DNA from: the human T2T-CHM13v2.0 reference genome, Homo sapiens
Strand: one strand, 5' to 3'
DNA: 64,000 bases
Assembly: GCF_009914755.1 (NCBI RefSeq)
Contig: NC_060932.1
In this document: positions 10,020-64,000 of the stretch, piece after piece
Position numbering within the stretch: position 1 is the stretch's first letter
How the letters are laid out: the number at the start of each line of letters is the position of its first letter
Notes under the pieces: model-generated
Told to the model about the DNA's origin: nothing
Seen by the model: the letters and a program-made list of their open reading frames with translations, nothing else
The model's database searches: none
Position numbers and translations under genes: made by a program

Positions 10020-10250
10020 GTATCATTTATTCTGCTCTTTTTAAGTGCCAGAGACTGCCAAGAGCTATCAATGTACACATATGTAGCATATCATTTTGTC
10101 CATACACAGCCTGTGAGAAATGAAATATCTCTATAAGAAGGTTGAGGAAACTGAGACTTAACGAAGTTAAATAATTTGCCCAAGAGGTTCCAGGCGACGT
10201 TCCAGTAATAAAATTAAGATTCTAACTAGTCCTTTACTGCTAAAGCCAGC
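10020..10250 (-). mobile_element. MIR
   Basis: tgaggaaactgagacttaacgaagttaaataatttgcccaag. Confidence 0.7.
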
Positions 10251-10714
10251 TTTCACCCGGGATATGCCTCCTTTACACTAGGAAGGCATTGCTGACCCAC
10301 TTCCATAGCCTGAGTCTCACATTCTGTTACCAGCAGAGGGGTAACTACTAAGGGGATTCTACTAATCTTACAACACTCTCTAGCCTTTATCTTCCCAAGC
10401 ATACATTTTTTTAGTAGTTGCCAAACATCAGGCAACTTCTGCCTTCTAGGAGGGGAAAAAAAGGAACCCATTCTTGGCAACATCCCACTCCTCATAGGTG
10501 TTCTCATCCCTGGTTCATCTCCAGCCACCAGCCACCCACCTCAGCTTCATTAAAGAGCTTGAATCACCAATGGGAAAACACCCACCCCTGGCCTGACCTG
10601 TCACAACCATACTCCTTGATGTTCTCTAGGGAAATATGCACACAGGGGACAGGGCCAGGAAAAGAAAGTGTTGTTACTGGTTGAATGCTGGACCCCAGAT
10701 GTTTGTACATGCCA

Positions 10715-57148: not shown

Positions 57149-60100
57149 GCCTTCCTCTAAAAAAGTGGCCCATAGCTTTCATCAGATTCTAAAAGGTATC
57201 CATGACCCAAAAGGATCATGGACCTTGGCATGGAGAATAATTCTAAATATGACCATTTATCAGAAGTATCTGTTCATATGTTAAAATAGTCAGATGATAG
57301 GACATACCCCATGCCTATTGAATCAGACTTAGGATGTGGGCATAGAAATCTATATGTTTTTTAAAGCTCCTTTAGTGGTGCTGATAGGCATACAAATTCA
57401 GGAGCCATTGATCAGGACCAAGAGAGCTAGATTTCAACTCTTAACTGCCAAGGATTCATCCACATAGACTCTATCTCTTTTTGTTTACTTGCATTATCAA
57501 TGACCTTTTCCCTCGAATGAGGTCTTAACTTCATGTGAGAATGTGTCCTTACTTTTGAAAACTACAGTAGGATAATCATTAAATTGCTGGATAAGGCAAC
57601 CCCAATTTTCTTGCAGGAGCCATGGCCCACCTTTAGTAATTTAGTTGGGTGATTCCCTTAGATAATCTGTGATCCAGGCTAACTCAAAAAGGTAATTGGC
57701 TTTTGCATGGTTATTTAAGGAGCGGTTTTGTAGCATTCATGTAGGATGCATAAGGTATTCACCTAAATAACATGAAGACAGTTGTTTCCATAATTAAAGA
57801 TTAAGTGATATATTGCAGAGTTGTTGCCTTTAAGCAGTTTGAGGCTTTATTTTTATAGAAACTACAAGATGATGGGCGAGGAAAAAAGGGGGCCTCAAAA
57901 TAAAGTATTTAGACAATGTTATGCAAAAAATAGCTAAAGGAATTTGTTCCTGCCAATTTCTACAAGCTATAAATAAAGAGTTAGGGAGTGAAAAGGAATA
58001 AACCAACATGTAATGCTTCTGAGATATGCTTGGCTTAAAGATACTTTTTTCTTCAAAAAGGTTGGAAACAGATTGGCCATAGATATAATATTCAGTGAAA
58101 AATCTGAATGTTCTCTTTCTTACCTAAGGAAGGGGGTGGAATATCATACCCATTTGTTGCGAAAACTAGGTCAGATTATATCCATTCATAGATGCTCTAA
58201 GTCAGAGCTAGACCAAGGGTTTGGGATCATGAAGAATAACAAAACATATTAGTCACCCGATACAGATAATTTCCCATATCTGTCAAAAATGCAAAATGTC
58301 TATCACTCTTAGCCCTCTCCTCCCCTCCCATCTTCAGAAGCAGTTTTGCCTATCATGACCATCGTCTCTACGTGGTTAAATTGTATTATTGATAATGTCA
58401 ACACACTGGTTGATCCTTTGACTCAAGGTGACTTGGTTTGGAAATGGGTTCATTTTCCCACTGAGAATCTTCAGGCCAATTAATTCAACCTTATTTGGAA
58501 ACTACAGGTAATTAATTATTTTTTGTTAACCTTGAGCACTCCCACAAGATAGGATAGCAAAAAATAAAAGATTTGGTGGGATTTCACGTGCTATATTTAG
58601 TGGAAATGTCATATAAACTGGAGGATGAAATCTTCCTACAAAATCAAAATCCAATATATGGAAAGACTGCTAAGAAATAGGACTGTCTTACTTAGTAAGA
58701 GACAGGCCGTTTCTGCTGTAACTTTCTATGATTTTAAGCATTTAGGAAGGCATTCCTTACCCCAGTATTAGTAGAATCTAAGGAGTCCCTGGATAACCTT
58801 TAGGGAGTCCATGAAACTCTTTAATGATGTCATATTATGAAATGTCAAATATTGTGTGCATGTGCTTATGTGTATCCCTGGGCCAGAAGTCATAACTTTA
58901 ACTGAATCTTAAAGAAGTGTGGGACCCAACAAGCTTGAAAACCAATTGCTCTAGCATTTCCACAGTAATGCAAAGCCTACTTTCGTAAGTCCTGAATGTC
59001 TCCCTATGGTATAGCCAATCTACTTTTAGGAAAGGTGCTGTGTTGTCTTCTTATTGGCTAATATTTGTTTTCAAAAATGCATTTCGTTTATTGTCTGTGA
59101 ATTTGCATATTCATAACACATCTTAAATTGAAGTATAACATAGTAAAGTGCATAAAGAGAGGTTAAGTATACAATTCCTTGAGTTATGACAGTTATATGT
59201 ACACTTGTAACCACCTCCCAAATCAAGATATAAAAGATTTAAATTACCCTAGGCACTTCTCTCATAATGCTTTAGTTATTTCTCACCTCCTTCCCAATGC
59301 AGAGACAACCACTGTTCTTATTATTATCATCACAAATTATTTTTGCCAATTTCAAAACTTCATAACAGTATTTTCTTAATGGCATCTTCTAATGAACTTT
59401 TCACTGAAAGAAACTTTTCATCAAAATTGTTTATTTTTATTTTTATTCCTTTATTTCATATTTTTTTTTTATGATTACTTTTTGTTTGTCCTAAGAAATG
59501 TTTTCTTACTCCAAGGTCATAAAAATAGTCTCCAACCTTTTCTTAAATACCACTGCTTTTGATATGTTGATCTTGTATAGTAAGACCTTCATATATTCAC
59601 TTATTTCTATTAGTTTTTTGTAGATTCTTTGGGGTTTCTAAATACTTCTAAGTAGAATTGAAATAGCTTTACTTCATCCTTTTCAATCTTTATGACTTTA
59701 ATTTTTTATTATTGGTATTACTGCACTGGCTGGGATTCCAGTACAATGTTGAATAGAAATGGTGAGAGTGGACTTTGAACTGTTTCTGATCTTAGAGGGA
59801 AAGTACTCAATGATTCACCATTGATTATAATGTTAACTGTAGGGTTAACATGTTGAGAAAGTTAATCAGGTTGATAAAGTCCCCTTCTGTTTCTATTTTA
59901 CTGAGACTATTTATAATAAACAGTGGTTGAATTTTGTTAATGCTTTTTCTGTATTTTTTGAAATGATCTTATTATTTTTCTCTTTGCTAAAAATGTGAGT
60001 AACCTTGAGTTGACTTTCTGTGTAAATCAACCTTGTGTCCCAGGAAAAAACTCCAATTGATCATGATGTGTTATCCTTTTTATACATTGCTGTATTCAAT

Positions 60101-60506
60101 ATGCTAATATATTTATTTTTTGTGTCTATTTCATGAGGGATATCAGTATGTAATTGTTTTTTCTTGTTATATCTTTGTTGGTTTTATTAATCAACATTAT
60201 GCTAACTTCATACAATATATTGGAACATGCTCCCTCCTTTTATTTTCTGGAAGGGTTCATGTAACACTGAAATTATTTCATTTTTAAACATTTGATATAA
60301 TTCATTAAAAATCCAATTGTTCCTTGATATTTTCTAAAGAAAAGGTCATTGTTACAAATTCAAAACCTTAATAAATATAAGGCCATTTATATTTTCTGTT
60401 TCTTTTTGTGTTGGTTTTGGTAAATTTGTATTTTTCAAAAAGTTTTTCACTTTAACTTGTTAAATTTATTGGTATTAATTTTTCATAATGTTCTCTTTTT
60501 GGTCTT

Positions 60507-61072
60507 TAAGAGTTAATTTAATTTAATGAGTGTACATTATTTTTTAAAATAAAAAAGAAAAACTTGAAAATGCAAATTAACAACCACATCCCCATTTGCC
60601 CCAATACGCTGTAGACCCCACCACAAACACAATACAGATGAGTGAATCAACAGTAACGTGCTCAGAGCTGGGGCATGTGACTGTTATGACCGAGTTCCAT
60701 ATTATTGTCTACACCTAATGCAATGGTGCAATAGAGATCCATGTGATGTGGCACTTCACCATGGAAGGTTTTGGAGATTGCTGAATCGAGACAGGCAGTG
60801 GAATATAATAGAAAGCACACTCGGAAATAGATTGGTTGATTCGTAGATTTACTAGTAATTATTATGTGACCAGGGACAATCTCTTAACTTCCTTATGCCT
60901 CGTGGTGCAGCAAAATATCACAAATCACCACTAATGAACTTACTGATATAACCAAACACCACTTGTTCCCCAAAAACCTATGGAAATAAAAATAAATAAA
61001 TAAATAAATAAACCAAAATACCTCCATATTGACCAGATAAGGAAACTGAGGCATAAGGAAGTTAAGAGGTTG
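60507..61072 (-). mobile_element. L1PB 3' end plus 3'-transduced DNA (MIR and unique sequence) with a 5' inversion
   Basis: 15-bp direct repeat tctctttttggtctt at 60492 and 61073; L1PB1-like terminus at 60902-61011; 27-bp inverted duplication 60875-60901 / 61048-61074. Confidence 0.85.
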
Positions 61073-61232
61073 TCTCTTTTTGGTCTTCTAATACCTTCTA
61101 ATACCTGTATAGTGATGTTCTCTCTTTTGTTCCTCATATTGGTCATTTGTGTAATTAAGGTCTGCTAGAGATGAAATTTCTCAACTATTGTCTGTCTGAA
61201 ACTATTCTTGCCATTCTTTTGAAGGATTTTTT

Positions 61233-62049
61233 TTAATTAGACTTTAAGTTCTAGGGTACATGTGCACAACGTGCAGGTTTGTTACATATGTATACATGTG
61301 CCATGTTGGTGTGCTGCACCCATTAACTCGTCATTTAGCATTAGGTATATCTCCTAATGCTATCCCTCTCCCCTCCCCCCACCCCATGACAGGTCCCCGT
61401 GTGTGATGTTCCCTTTCCTGTGTCCATGTGTTCTCATTGTTCAATTCCCACCTATGAGTGAGAACATGTGGTGTTTGGTTTTTTTGTCCCTGAGATAGTT
61501 TGCTGAGAATGATGGTTTCCAGCTTCATCCATGTTCCTACAAAGGACATGAACTCATCATTTTTTATGGCTGCATAGTATTCCATGGTGTATATGTGCCA
61601 CATTTTCTTAATCCAGTCTATCATTGATGGACATTTGGGTTGGTTCCAAGTCTTTGCTATTGTGAATAGTGCTGCAATAAACATACATGTGTATATGTCT
61701 TTATAGCAGCATGATTTATAATCCTTTAGGTATATACCCAGTAATGGGATGGCTGGGTCAAATGGTATTTCTAGTTCTAGATCCTTGAGGAATTGCCACA
61801 TTGTCTTCCACAATGGTTGAACTAGTTTACAGTCCCACCAACAGTGTAAAAGTGTTCCTATTTCTCCACATCCTCTCCAGCACCTGTTGTTTCCTGACTT
61901 TTTAATGATCGCCATTCTAACTGGTGTGAGATGGTATCTCATTTTGGTTTTGATTTGCATTTCTCTGATGGCCAGTGATGATGAACATTTTTTCATGTGT
62001 CTGTTGGCTGCATAAATGTCTTCTTTTGAGAAGTGTCTCTTCATATCCT
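61233..62049 (-). mobile_element. L1PA3/4 3' fragment; ORF2 C-terminus still open
   Basis: ORF 61331-62134 contains the L1 ORF2p C-terminal domain ([19 protein letters not shown]); TSD ttttgaaggat(t/a)tttt at 61217 and 62050. Confidence 0.97.
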
Positions 62050-62404
62050 TTTTGAAGGATATTTTTAGAGGGCACTTTTTATCTTTGATTCTCAATAACT
62101 TGACTATTTTGTGCTCAGGTATATTTTTCTTCATATTTATCCTGTTTGGAATTGATTGAGTTTCTTGGATTTGTGAGTTAATCTAAAGATTACATCCATT
62201 TTTGAAAAGTTCTCAGCCATTGTGTCTTCAAATATTTTTTTCTCCCCTATTCACTCTAACCTCTTTTTTGGAGGACTCTAATTATTTAAAGTTAGACTGT
62301 TAGATATTATCCTTCTCTTGTGGAAGCTCTCTTTGTGTTTTAAATGATTTTTTCTTTTTACATTTCAGTTTGGATAATTTTTATTGATATGTCTTTAAGT
62401 TCAC

Positions 62405-62409
<5 letters not shown>

Positions 62410-62447
<38 letters not shown>

Positions 62448-62706
62448 AGACAGAGTCTTGCTCTGTTGCCTGGGCTGTAGTGCAGTGGCACGATCCGGTT
62501 CACTGCAAGATCCGCCTCCTGGGTTCACGTCATTCTCCTGCCTCAGCCTCCCAAGTAGCTGGGACTAAAAGTGCCCGCCACCACGCCCAGTTAATTTTTT
62601 GTATTTTTAGTAGAGACAGGGTTTCACTGTGTTAGCCAGGATGGTCTTGATCTCCTGACCTCGTGATTCGCCCGCCTCAGCCTCCCGAAGTGCTTGGATT
62701 ACAGAC
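62410..62706 (-). mobile_element. AluY, slightly 5' truncated, long pure tail
   Basis: ctgcaagatccgcc, gttagccaggatgg; TSD aagttcactgatt at 62397 and 62707. Confidence 0.97.
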
Positions 62707-64000
62707 AAGTTCACTGATTCTTTAGTCTGCTACATTCAGTCTGTTGTTAAACCCATCAAACAAATTATTTCTGATATTTCTATAGAATTTCCATTTAGTT
62801 CTTTTCTATCTTTTCATGTTTCTGCTTAAACTCCTCAGCTTTTCAATAATGTTGTGCATTGTTCTCACTAGATTATTTAACATATTTATAACAATTATCT
62901 TAAAGTTATTTTCTGCTAATTCCAACAGTTGGGTTGTATGTGGATCTCCTCTATTAATTTTTTCCTCTTTATCATAGGTATATTTTTCTGTTTCTTTGTA
63001 TGTCTTGTAATTTTGTATTATATACTAGAAATTGTGTATAAAAATGATAGTTATGACTACAGTAATACTGTGCTCAGAAAATATCATGCTTCTTCTTCTG
63101 TTAGGCTGCTGGTGAGAGATCTCAATCTGATTTGTAGTTGAGCAGGGTCTGGGCTTCATTGCAGCTTTAGTTAGATTCTGTTCACCACTGGCTTCAAATA
63201 TTTGAGGATGGGGTTGAGACTTTCCCTTCAGTGGGCTTTGAATCTCAGCACTACCACCACCAGACTCTAAAGGTCTCTATAGCTTACAGTTCAGCTTCCA
63301 GAATTCCAAGTACCATGAAAATGCTCTGTGCTTTATAGTTCAGCTGCCAGTTTTTTGGGGAACAGAGAAATTTCCTTTGCTTTTCATCTCTATCCCTAGG
63401 TCTCCTTACCTTGGGAGATCTATTTCTCCCCAGGCTGTTACACACTGCTCCCAGCCTTCAGCAAGACATTGCATTGCACTTGATGACAGCACCTCAGGGC
63501 ATCTATCTCAGCAATCCTGCCCCTTCCCCAGCTTTCATTAAGTCACTACTTTGCATTTGATTAAGGTCCTGTGTACCTTCAAAATAGACTCTCTCAGCCC
63601 TCATGCCTTGCTCCCAGGCTTTAGGGAATTGCTGACTTATACTTGGTGAAGGTCCTGTGAACCTCAGGGTTATTTTTCGTAACTTCCTTGTCCTTGTCCT
63701 TAGCCTTTGATTGGCCAGTGCCATGTATTCGGCGGAAGTTCAATATACCTGGGTGGGGACATCTTTTCTGTGTGCTTCAGGGAAATCTTTCTCAACTTTC
63801 TTGCTCTTCCCCTGGTCTTTAGTAGGCCACCGCCTTGCACTGTTATGGTCCTCTGCATCTTGGAATGGAGGGGATCTTTCTCAGTGTTCTTGCCCTGTCC
63901 TCAGTCATTGGTGGGCCACTGCATTTTACCCAGTAAAGATCCAGTGTGCCTCAGGCGGATTTCTCTTGGACCTCCTATCCTGCCTCTAGCATTGAGTATC

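What the first reader, a model, noticed from the sequence alone, without database searches (positions are those of the whole stretch)
60492..61087. Hidden ancient L1PB 3' transduction with a twin-priming inversion inside the transduced DNA
Seen: the antisense L1M stops at tctctttttggtctt (60492-60506) and resumes at an identical 15-mer (61073-61087), so the 566 bp between are one insertion. Within it, 60875-60901 (gacaatctcttaacttccttatgcctc) is the reverse complement of 61048-61074 with one mismatch. Joining 60902-61074 (+) to 60874-60507 (-) gives one continuous molecule: L1PB1-like 3' end, its own (AAAT)n tail, an uninterrupted MIR core, about 280 bp of unique sequence, then two ATTAAA signals (minus strand, 60517-60527) 10-15 nt before the TSD. 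The inverted arm shares tc microhomology with the TSD. Known: L1 3' transduction and twin priming (Ostertag and Kazazian model) produce these signatures. Inference: an L1PB source element read through into its flank, and the internal primer landed in the transduced MIR, duplicating 27 bp. Standard repeat annotation would show only scattered L1/MIR pieces. The unique DNA should tag a source locus tens of millions of years old. Caveat: there is almost no terminal poly(A), and the endonuclease site is imperfect.
Basis: partly seen in the sequence, partly recalled or inferred. Interest (0 to 1): 0.8.

Follow-up and report, generated by a model that had tools for sequence, protein, structure and literature searches.

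The report
Old inverted L1 retrocopy carrying chr10 DNA
A 566-base insertion inside an old LINE-1 is an ancient LINE-1-made retrocopy, half of it flipped during insertion, that joins a LINE-1 tail end to DNA copied from chromosome 10; it is a well-preserved but ordinary example of known processes.

Summary
An exact 15-mer (60492-60506, 61073-61087) brackets 566 bp that split one old antisense L1. Inside, 60902-60991 is the 3' end of a high-copy L1 family, followed by an (AAAT)n tail.

The rest has one paralog in the genome, on contig C10 at 63,427,722-63,428,145. There the two oppositely oriented window segments form one uninterrupted stretch and overlap by about 27 nt. Homology ends 10-15 nt after two ATTAAA signals.

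This geometry fits a twin-priming 5' inversion with a junction duplication:
- The inverted upstream part abuts one copy of the 15-mer.
- The duplication sits at that end and at the inversion junction.
- 4 of 5 nt of microhomology link the target to the internal priming site.

The 3'-transduction claim is only partly supported. The predicted donor exists with the MIR uninverted, but no copy of that L1 lies beside it or within 10 kb in this assembly. The most likely cause is a source L1 that never fixed or was lost, a situation already in print as "proxy elements". A template-switch or ligation chimera is the main rival.

Divergence from the donor (K2P 0.17) suggests an age of tens of millions of years. 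Inversions inside transduced DNA are already documented, so interest is low.

The parts
59718..60491 (-). Left flank: old L1 in antisense orientation, ORF2 reverse-transcriptase region. This is the host of the insertion.
   Evidence: 59718-59861(-) matches ORF2p residues 636-673, E 1.1e-7. A profile of 21 genomic copies aligns 60199-60508 to profile positions 2-320.
60492..60506 (.). Target-site duplication, left copy. It lies next to the 3' end of the retrocopy.
   Evidence: Exact 15-mer, 2 matches in the window against 0.01 expected.
60507..60901 (-). Non-inverted 3' segment of the retrocopy, sense on the minus strand: 3' part of a MIR-like repeat, about 280 nt of single-copy DNA, then polyadenylation signals.
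   Evidence: Aligns to L002 1472-1869 (contig C10). Identity is 82% by blastn and 85% over 381 ungapped columns; K2P 0.17.
60517..60527 (-). Two overlapping ATTAAA polyadenylation hexamers, 10 and 15 nt before the target-site duplication.
   Evidence: Read directly. The donor has ATTAAA and AATAAA at the same place, and homology ends a few nt later.
60875..60901 (-). Junction copy of the 27-nt duplicated stretch: the far end of the first cDNA.
   Evidence: Inverted repeat with 61048-61074; 28 of 30 over 60872-60901 / 61048-61077. Both arms map to L002 1472-1498.
60902..60991 (+). It is part of the inverted segment.
   Evidence: 1195 candidate copies. The 40 scored are the window's own locus at 100% and 39 others at 85-93%. 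All 29 fetched copies continue upstream where the window copy breaks off. Copy L027 encodes ORF2p residues 1038-1143 upstream.
60992..61019 (+). The L1's own A-rich (AAAT)n tail.
   Evidence: Read directly. Several of the 29 family copies carry (AAAT)n tails at the same point.
61020..61072 (+). Inverted segment, donor-derived part: the MIR-like core up to the internal priming site.
   Evidence: 61022-61065 aligns to L002 1446-1489, 43 of 44 identical. nhmmer extends the match to 61020.
61073..61087 (.). Target-site duplication, right copy. Its first 5 nt (TCTCT) resemble the template's TCCCT at the internal priming site.
61088..61229 (-). Right flank: continuation of the same old antisense L1, up to a younger antisense L1 that starts at about 61230.
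   Evidence: The profile resumes at position 320 at window 61099.

Best explanation
The 566 bp at 60507-61072 are one L1-mediated retro-insertion, made by target-primed reverse transcription into an older antisense L1.

Template RNA (inferred). It read, 5' to 3': the L1 3' end, the L1's own A-rich tail, then about 430 nt of the sequence now found on contig C10 at 63,427,722-63,428,145. That stretch holds a MIR-like repeat and single-copy DNA. The RNA was cleaved 10-15 nt after ATTAAA signals.

Insertion steps (inferred).
1. The plus strand was nicked after ...GGTCTT. The first cDNA copied the RNA from its 3' end, giving 60507-60901.
2. The other strand was nicked 15 nt away. Its end (...AGAGA-3') annealed inside the RNA at TCCCT.
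3. A second cDNA was primed there and ran upstream through the MIR core, the tail and 90 nt of L1, giving 61072 back to 60902.
4. The first cDNA overshot the internal priming site by about 27 nt, which produced the inverted duplication.
5. The two cDNA ends were joined at 60901/60902.

Origin of the RNA (inferred). It was most likely a read-through (3' transduction) transcript of an L1 that sat at the C10 site in an ancestral population and was later lost or never fixed.

What is shown and what is not. Shown: the target-site duplication, the interrupted host L1, the identity of the L1 3' end, the single donor paralog with both arms contiguous, and the end of homology just after the polyadenylation signals. 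Inferred: the order of priming events and the former presence of an L1 at the donor. No function is implied.
For: - Target-site duplication: 2 matches against 0.01 expected.
- Host L1 is collinear across the gap: profile positions 2-320, then 320-380.
- The single-copy part has exactly one other locus in the 3.1-Gb assembly (repeated from the donor side).
- On that locus the two arms are contiguous and overlap at L002 1472-1498.
- The arms match each other at 28 of 30 positions and share differences from the donor.
- Homology with the donor stops within about 10 nt after the polyadenylation hexamers. This points to an RNA intermediate.
- The L1 piece belongs to a family with at least 1195 candidate copies. 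The terminus and tail sit exactly where the family's copies end.
- Microhomology at the internal priming site is 4 of 5 nt. Passages of PMC2912911 report microhomologies at the 5' junctions of 5'-inverted L1s and a target-site duplication peak of 14-16 bp.
- Passages of PMC13009371 report 5' inversions in 30% of partnered and 16% of orphan transductions, breakpoint clusters inside transduced sequence, and 'proxy elements': truncated reference L1s with transduced sequence whose source L1 is absent from the reference.
- The ages agree. K2P between window and donor is 0.17. The L1 piece is on average 90.3% identical to 29 family copies, which are 93.6% identical to each other. Those 29 were the best matches to the query, so the last figures are biased.
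Against: - The donor locus has no L1 next to the homologous stretch, and no copy of that L1 3' end lies within 10 kb on either side. The defining proof of a transduction is therefore missing.
- There is essentially no terminal poly(A); at most 1-2 A lie between the last template base and the duplication.
- The nick site TCTT/CT matches the TTTT/AA preference poorly.
- No sibling insertion carrying the same transduced DNA exists in the genome.
- 9-12 nt between the (AAAT)n run and the first clearly donor-homologous base (CCAAAATAC) cannot be assigned.
- The 44-nt MIR core is 43 of 44 identical to the donor, while the rest is 82-85% identical. None of 353 44-column windows in the other arm has fewer than 2 differences. 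This unevenness is unexplained.
Confidence: 0.65

Rival explanations
1. Template-switch or RNA-ligation chimera. A polyadenylated non-L1 transcript of the C10 locus was the retrotransposed template. During the second (top-strand) cDNA synthesis, or beforehand by RNA ligation, the reverse transcriptase continued onto the poly(A) end of a separate L1 RNA. The L1 end and tail were thus fused to the C10 sequence without any L1 ever having been at C10.
For: The donor locus is L1-free in this assembly, and no L1 of the family lies within 10 kb. Chimeric L1 insertions formed by template switching, ligation or twin priming are documented in passages of PMC13174262. The junction joins an intact A-rich tail to an internal point of another sequence, which is what a jump to an RNA 3' end would give.
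Against: In the catalogued chimeras the L1 is normally the 3' partner and the other RNA the 5' partner (PMC13174262). Here the polarity is the reverse, which is the polarity of a 3' transduction. This rival needs an independent, polyadenylated transcript of an anonymous C10 stretch, for which I have no evidence. About 25% of L1 insertions carry transductions (PMC13009371), and source L1s missing from a reference are documented, so the prior favours transduction.
Confidence: 0.2
2. Two events. First came a twin-primed retrocopy of a C10 transcript without any L1. Later a short 5'-truncated L1 fragment with its tail inserted exactly at the inversion junction, with ATGCCTC / ATACCTC as a 7-bp target-site duplication.
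For: A 6-of-7 direct repeat (60895-60901 and 61017-61023) flanks the L1 piece plus tail (read).
Against: The second insertion would have to land precisely at the 60901/60902 junction. 7 bp is short for an L1 target-site duplication, whose peak is 14-16 bp (PMC2912911). The bases CTC at 61021-61023 are also explained as donor sequence, since the donor reads ...AAACTCCAT.
Confidence: 0.03
3. DNA-level event not made by reverse transcription: double-strand-break repair with a captured or template-switched C10 DNA fragment (fold-back or microhomology-mediated), which happens to be flanked by a 15-bp duplication.
For: There is almost no poly(A) and the endonuclease site is atypical. Inverted duplications can arise by fold-back mechanisms (PMC3907307, search listing only).
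Against: The copied stretch ends 10-15 nt after polyadenylation signals. A 15-bp duplication is at the peak size for L1 endonuclease-mediated insertion (PMC2912911). An L1 3' end with its tail is part of the same piece. The inverted part is the upstream part of the template and abuts the duplication, as twin priming predicts.
Confidence: 0.05

Closest known systems
L1 twin-priming 5' inversion (Ostertag and Kazazian 2001; paper not held, recalled. Described in passages of PMC2912911 and PMC2837659)
   Same: Two oppositely oriented pieces of one template lie inside one target-site duplication. The inverted piece is the upstream part and abuts the 5' copy of the duplication. There is microhomology at the internal priming site and a small overlap at the junction.
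   Different: The internal priming site and one breakpoint lie in non-L1 (MIR-like, donor-derived) sequence rather than in the L1 body. The overlap is a 27-nt duplication. PMC2837659 describes internal deletions as typical; that duplications also occur is my recollection of the 2001 paper.
Partnered L1 3' transduction whose source L1 is absent from the reference ('proxy elements', PMC13009371)
   Same: A truncated L1 3' end with its own tail is followed in the same orientation by unique DNA that maps elsewhere and ends after a downstream polyadenylation signal. The source L1 is not at the donor in the assembly. That paper reports 5' inversions in 30% of partnered transductions and breakpoints inside transduced DNA.
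   Different: This insertion is tens of millions of years old rather than polymorphic or somatic. The missing source therefore cannot be recovered from population data, and the terminal poly(A) is gone.
Chimeric L1 insertions by template switching or ligation (U6/L1 and others; PMC13174262)
   Same: Two unrelated RNAs' sequences are fused inside one target-site duplication.
   Different: In those chimeras the L1 is the 3' partner. Here the L1 end is the 5' partner with its tail internal, as in a transduction.
SVA insertion in SPTA1 listed as an orphan 3' transduction with inversion (table in PMC4859970)
   Same: An inversion within a transduction-bearing retro-insertion.
   Different: That case is an SVA, an orphan without element sequence, recent and disease-causing.

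Membership tests
L1 endonuclease / TPRT-mediated insertion | Target-site duplication of about 7-20 bp flanking the insert | tested here: met
   Exact 15-bp direct repeat; 2 matches against 0.01 expected. The host L1 is collinear across the insert.
L1 endonuclease / TPRT-mediated insertion | First-strand nick at a TTTT/AA-like site | tested here: inconclusive
   The site reads TCTT/CT: T-rich 5' of the nick, not A-rich 3' of it. Variants such as TCTT/AT are listed for real insertions in the table of PMC4859970.
L1 endonuclease / TPRT-mediated insertion | Poly(A) tail at the 3' end of the insert | tested here: not met
   At most 1-2 A lie between the last template-derived bases and the duplication. 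Loss through age or priming at the very start of the tail is possible but not shown.
L1 endonuclease / TPRT-mediated insertion | RNA origin: the copy ends at a cleavage/polyadenylation site of the donor | tested here: met
   Homology with contig C10 ends within about 10 nt after the ATTAAA/AATAAA hexamers.
Twin-priming 5' inversion | Two segments of one template in opposite orientation inside one target-site duplication, with the upstream segment inverted and abutting the 5' copy | tested here: met
   Both arms map to one strand of L002 1446-1869. The arm holding the upstream part (1446-1498) abuts 61073-61087.
Twin-priming 5' inversion | Microhomology between the top-strand target end and the internal priming site | tested here: met
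   TCTCT in the target against TCCCT in the template, 4 of 5. The inverted repeat extends 3 nt into the duplication. This is short, so the support is weak.
Twin-priming 5' inversion | Small deletion or duplication of template sequence at the inversion point | tested here: met
   A 27-nt duplication (L002 1472-1498) is present in both arms.
L1 3' transduction | L1 3' end with its own tail followed, in the same orientation, by non-L1 DNA that ends at a downstream polyadenylation signal | tested here: met
L1 3' transduction | The transduced DNA maps immediately 3' of a source L1 at the donor locus | tested here: not met
   The donor was found on contig C10, but no L1 adjoins it and none of the family lies within 10 kb. 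Only one assembly was examined. Sources absent from a reference are documented (PMC13009371). I therefore say it works like a transduction, without proven membership.
L1PB subfamily | Diagnostic positions of the L1PB 3' end consensus | not testable with these tools
   No Dfam, Repbase or RepeatMasker was available. Only membership of an L1 family with this terminus is shown.
MIR (core-SINE) | Similarity to the MIR consensus across the core | tested here: inconclusive
   The resemblance to the MIR core is recalled. One independent copy at window 10108-10284 aligns to L002 1421-1601 at E 0.0026. The genome search found no other copies.

The most novel reading that the evidence does not exclude
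The insertion is the only surviving trace of an extinct, never-fixed L1 progenitor that sat at C10:63,427,7xx roughly 40-80 million years ago: an ancient 'proxy element'. Alternatively, it is a reverse-polarity template-switch chimera in which an L1 RNA was the 5' partner of a host transcript, joined during the top-strand cDNA synthesis of a twin-priming event. That would be a combination not catalogued in the passages I read. My searches for twin priming with transduction turned up no description of this locus.
Probability: 0.2. Interest if true: 0.3.

Novelty: new member of a known kind. Interest (0 to 1): 0.15.

Why it matters
This is a clean, fully resolvable fossil. It shows that an ancient retro-insertion can still be traced to its donor locus (C8 to C10). 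It also shows that twin priming can start in transduced, non-L1 sequence, and that a simple repeat annotation would probably break it into unrelated L1, MIR and unique pieces. It could serve as a teaching example or a test case for annotation pipelines that try to reconstruct composite insertions.

It has no apparent functional consequence. It lies in a gene-poor stretch about 8 kb before the start of EXT1's span (window 68893, hub annotation), inside an old L1. The mechanisms involved are already well documented.

Tried and rejected
- Blastn of the flanks against 29 fetched copies of the host L1 gave a right-flank hit in only 1 of 29 (L056, collinear).
- Local alignments of the right flank to 21 copies were mostly collinear, but scores were only 0-4 SD above shuffles because the sequence is T-rich. 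I replaced this with a profile search.
- Pfam scans of five short minus-strand translations of the flanks found nothing at E <= 1.
- A PDB search with 60208-60333(-) found only chance hits. The RT piece 59718-59861(-) did match ORF2p.
- Comparison of the flanks with the younger L1 at 61236-64000 gave no useful alignment.
- The genome search with the donor's MIR region found no other MIR copies. Blastn found one 26-nt hit in the window and the other fetched loci, and nhmmer found one copy. MIR identity and its continuation upstream of the L1 junction on C10 are therefore only weakly supported.
- Ostertag and Kazazian 2001 is not held.
- I could not annotate the C10 donor, because no gene table exists for that locus, and I could not examine orthologous loci in other primates.
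- A chance origin for the 15-mer and the inverted repeat is rejected.

Full report
**Observation.**
- The 15-mer TCTCTTTTTGGTCTT occurs at 60492-60506 and 61073-61087 and nowhere else in the window, even with one mismatch allowed. The expectation is 0.01, and 0 of 100 shuffles reached two matches.
- The 566 bp between the copies contain an inverted repeat, 60872-60901 against 61048-61077, with 28 of 30 positions complementary.

**The flanks are one interrupted old L1.**
- The minus-strand translation of 59718-59861 matches human L1 ORF2p residues 636-673 in solved structures (E 1.1e-7).
- I fetched 29 genomic relatives of the left flank and built a profile from the 21 whose matches reached the insertion point.
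- That profile aligns window 60199-60508 to positions 2-320 (E 3e-49) and resumes at window 61099-61152 with positions 320-380 (E 4.3e-6). The host element therefore continues where it stopped.
- Between 61088 and 61098 the window has an extra 11 nt, a local tandem duplication (CTAATACCTT / CTAATACCTG).
- Plain blastn saw the right flank in only 1 of 29 copies, and that hit was collinear. Local alignments scored only modestly above shuffles. Pfam found nothing in five short translations.

**The L1 piece.** Window 60902-61021 found 1195 candidate loci in the window's own 3.1-Gb genome.
- The 40 scored comprise the window's own locus at 100% and 39 others at 85-93% identity.
- All 29 fetched copies share the same terminus, ending ...CCTATGGAAATAAAA. 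Each continues upstream with shared sequence where the window copy breaks off at 60901/60902. Downstream each runs into its own A-rich tail, and several tails are (AAAT)n.
- One copy (L027) encodes ORF2p residues 1038-1143 about 0.5-0.85 kb upstream (E 5.7e-45 to 4e-44 across four ORF2p entries).
- So 60902-60991 is a 5'-truncated L1 3' end and 60992-61019 is its tail. The subfamily name L1PB could not be tested.

**The donor.** The single-copy part (60507-60875) has exactly one other match in the genome: contig C10, 63,427,777-63,428,145, minus strand, 82% identity. A reciprocal search from the donor side found only the two window pieces.
- Window 60901-60514 (minus) aligns to L002 1472-1869.
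- Window 61022-61065 (plus) aligns to L002 1446-1489, 43 of 44 identical.
- On C10 the two arms are therefore one uninterrupted stretch on one strand, overlapping at 1472-1498.
- The arms resemble each other more than either resembles the donor in that overlap, as expected if both were copied from one template.
- Homology ends a few nt after the donor's ATTAAA/AATAAA hexamers. In the window two ATTAAA signals lie 10 and 15 nt before the target-site duplication. This points to a polyadenylated RNA intermediate.

**Mechanism.** The layout is what twin priming predicts, as described in passages of PMC2912911 and PMC2837659.
- The non-inverted 3' segment abuts the duplication copy at the priming nick.
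- The inverted segment is the upstream part of the template, and its 3'-most template base abuts the other duplication copy.
- The top-strand end (...AGAGA-3') could pair with the template's TCCCT at 4 of 5 positions.
- The overlap sits at that end and at the inversion junction, as expected if the first cDNA passed the internal priming site by 27 nt.
- A 15-bp duplication is at the 14-16 bp peak reported for L1 (PMC2912911).
- Against a textbook event: the nick site is TCTT/CT and there is practically no terminal poly(A).

**Is it a 3' transduction?** The polarity is that of a transduction: L1 end, internal tail, unique DNA, downstream polyadenylation signal. But on C10 the homology starts at L002 1444-1446.
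- It is preceded by non-L1 sequence and, 50 nt further up, by an Alu with its own short direct repeats.
- No copy of the L1 family lies within 10 kb on either side.
- One independent MIR-like copy (window 10108-10284) aligns to L002 1421-1601 (E 0.0026). This hints that the repeat on C10 runs on upstream of the junction point, so that C10 is an intact 'empty' site. The evidence is weak.

The likeliest reading is that the source L1 was an allele at C10 that was lost or never fixed.
- Truncated reference L1s that carry transduced DNA from a source absent from the reference are described as 'proxy elements' (PMC13009371).
- The same paper reports that about 25% of L1 insertions carry transductions. 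It reports 5' inversions in 30% of partnered and 16% of orphan transductions, with breakpoint clusters inside transduced sequence.
- The main rival is a template-switch or ligation chimera between a C10 transcript and an L1 RNA (mechanisms reviewed in PMC13174262). Its polarity would be unusual, and it needs an unevidenced host transcript.
- A later L1 insertion exactly at the junction (6-of-7 repeat ATGCCTC / ATACCTC) and a DNA-level repair event are unlikely.

**Age.** K2P between the window copy and the donor is 0.17 over 381 aligned nt (39 transitions, 18 transversions, 7 gap events), or about 0.085 per lineage.
- The L1 piece is on average 90.3% identical to 29 family copies, which are 93.6% identical to each other. 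These copies were picked as best matches, so the figures are biased.
- With commonly assumed primate neutral rates (recalled, roughly 1-2 x 10^-9 per site per year), this suggests tens of millions of years. No ortholog test was possible.

**Verdict.** Twin priming is strongly supported. 3' transduction is probable, but the source L1 is not at the donor in this assembly. The phenomenon, including inversions within transduced DNA and missing sources, is already in print. This is a well-preserved new instance of a known kind, with no sign of function.

Noticed in passing
window 61022-61065 vs L002 1446-1489: The 44-nt MIR-core stretch is 43 of 44 identical between the C8 copy and the C10 donor, while the rest of the copy is 82-85% identical. 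None of 353 44-column windows in the other arm has fewer than 2 differences. This could be rate heterogeneity or chance. It is unexplained.
   Followed up: partly
window 61088-61108: An 11-nt tandem duplication (CTAATACCTT / CTAATACCTG) lies just after the right target-site duplication copy. It is absent from the profile of the host L1 family.
   Followed up: partly
window 61230-62069 and beyond: A younger L1 in antisense orientation starts with a T-run at about 61230. Its sequence reads as the reverse complement of a primate-specific L1 3' end (recalled). 61462-61480 is 95% complementary to 60950-60968 of the inserted L1 piece (I3).
   Followed up: no
L002 1160-1397 (contig C10, about 63,427,436-63,427,673): An Alu, apparently 3'-truncated with a short A-run, lies 50 nt upstream of the donor stretch. 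It is flanked by an imperfect direct repeat (...CCAGAGAACTG / ...CCTAGAGAACTG) and is absent from the C8 copy.
   Followed up: no
window 10108-10284: A diverged MIR-like copy. It was the only independent relative of the donor's MIR region found in about 490 kb of held sequence.
   Followed up: partly
loci L004, L006, L007, L011, L017, L020, L028: Many copies of this L1 family carry (AAAT)n rather than pure poly(A) tails. The terminus ...GGAAATAAAA may seed this microsatellite.
   Followed up: no
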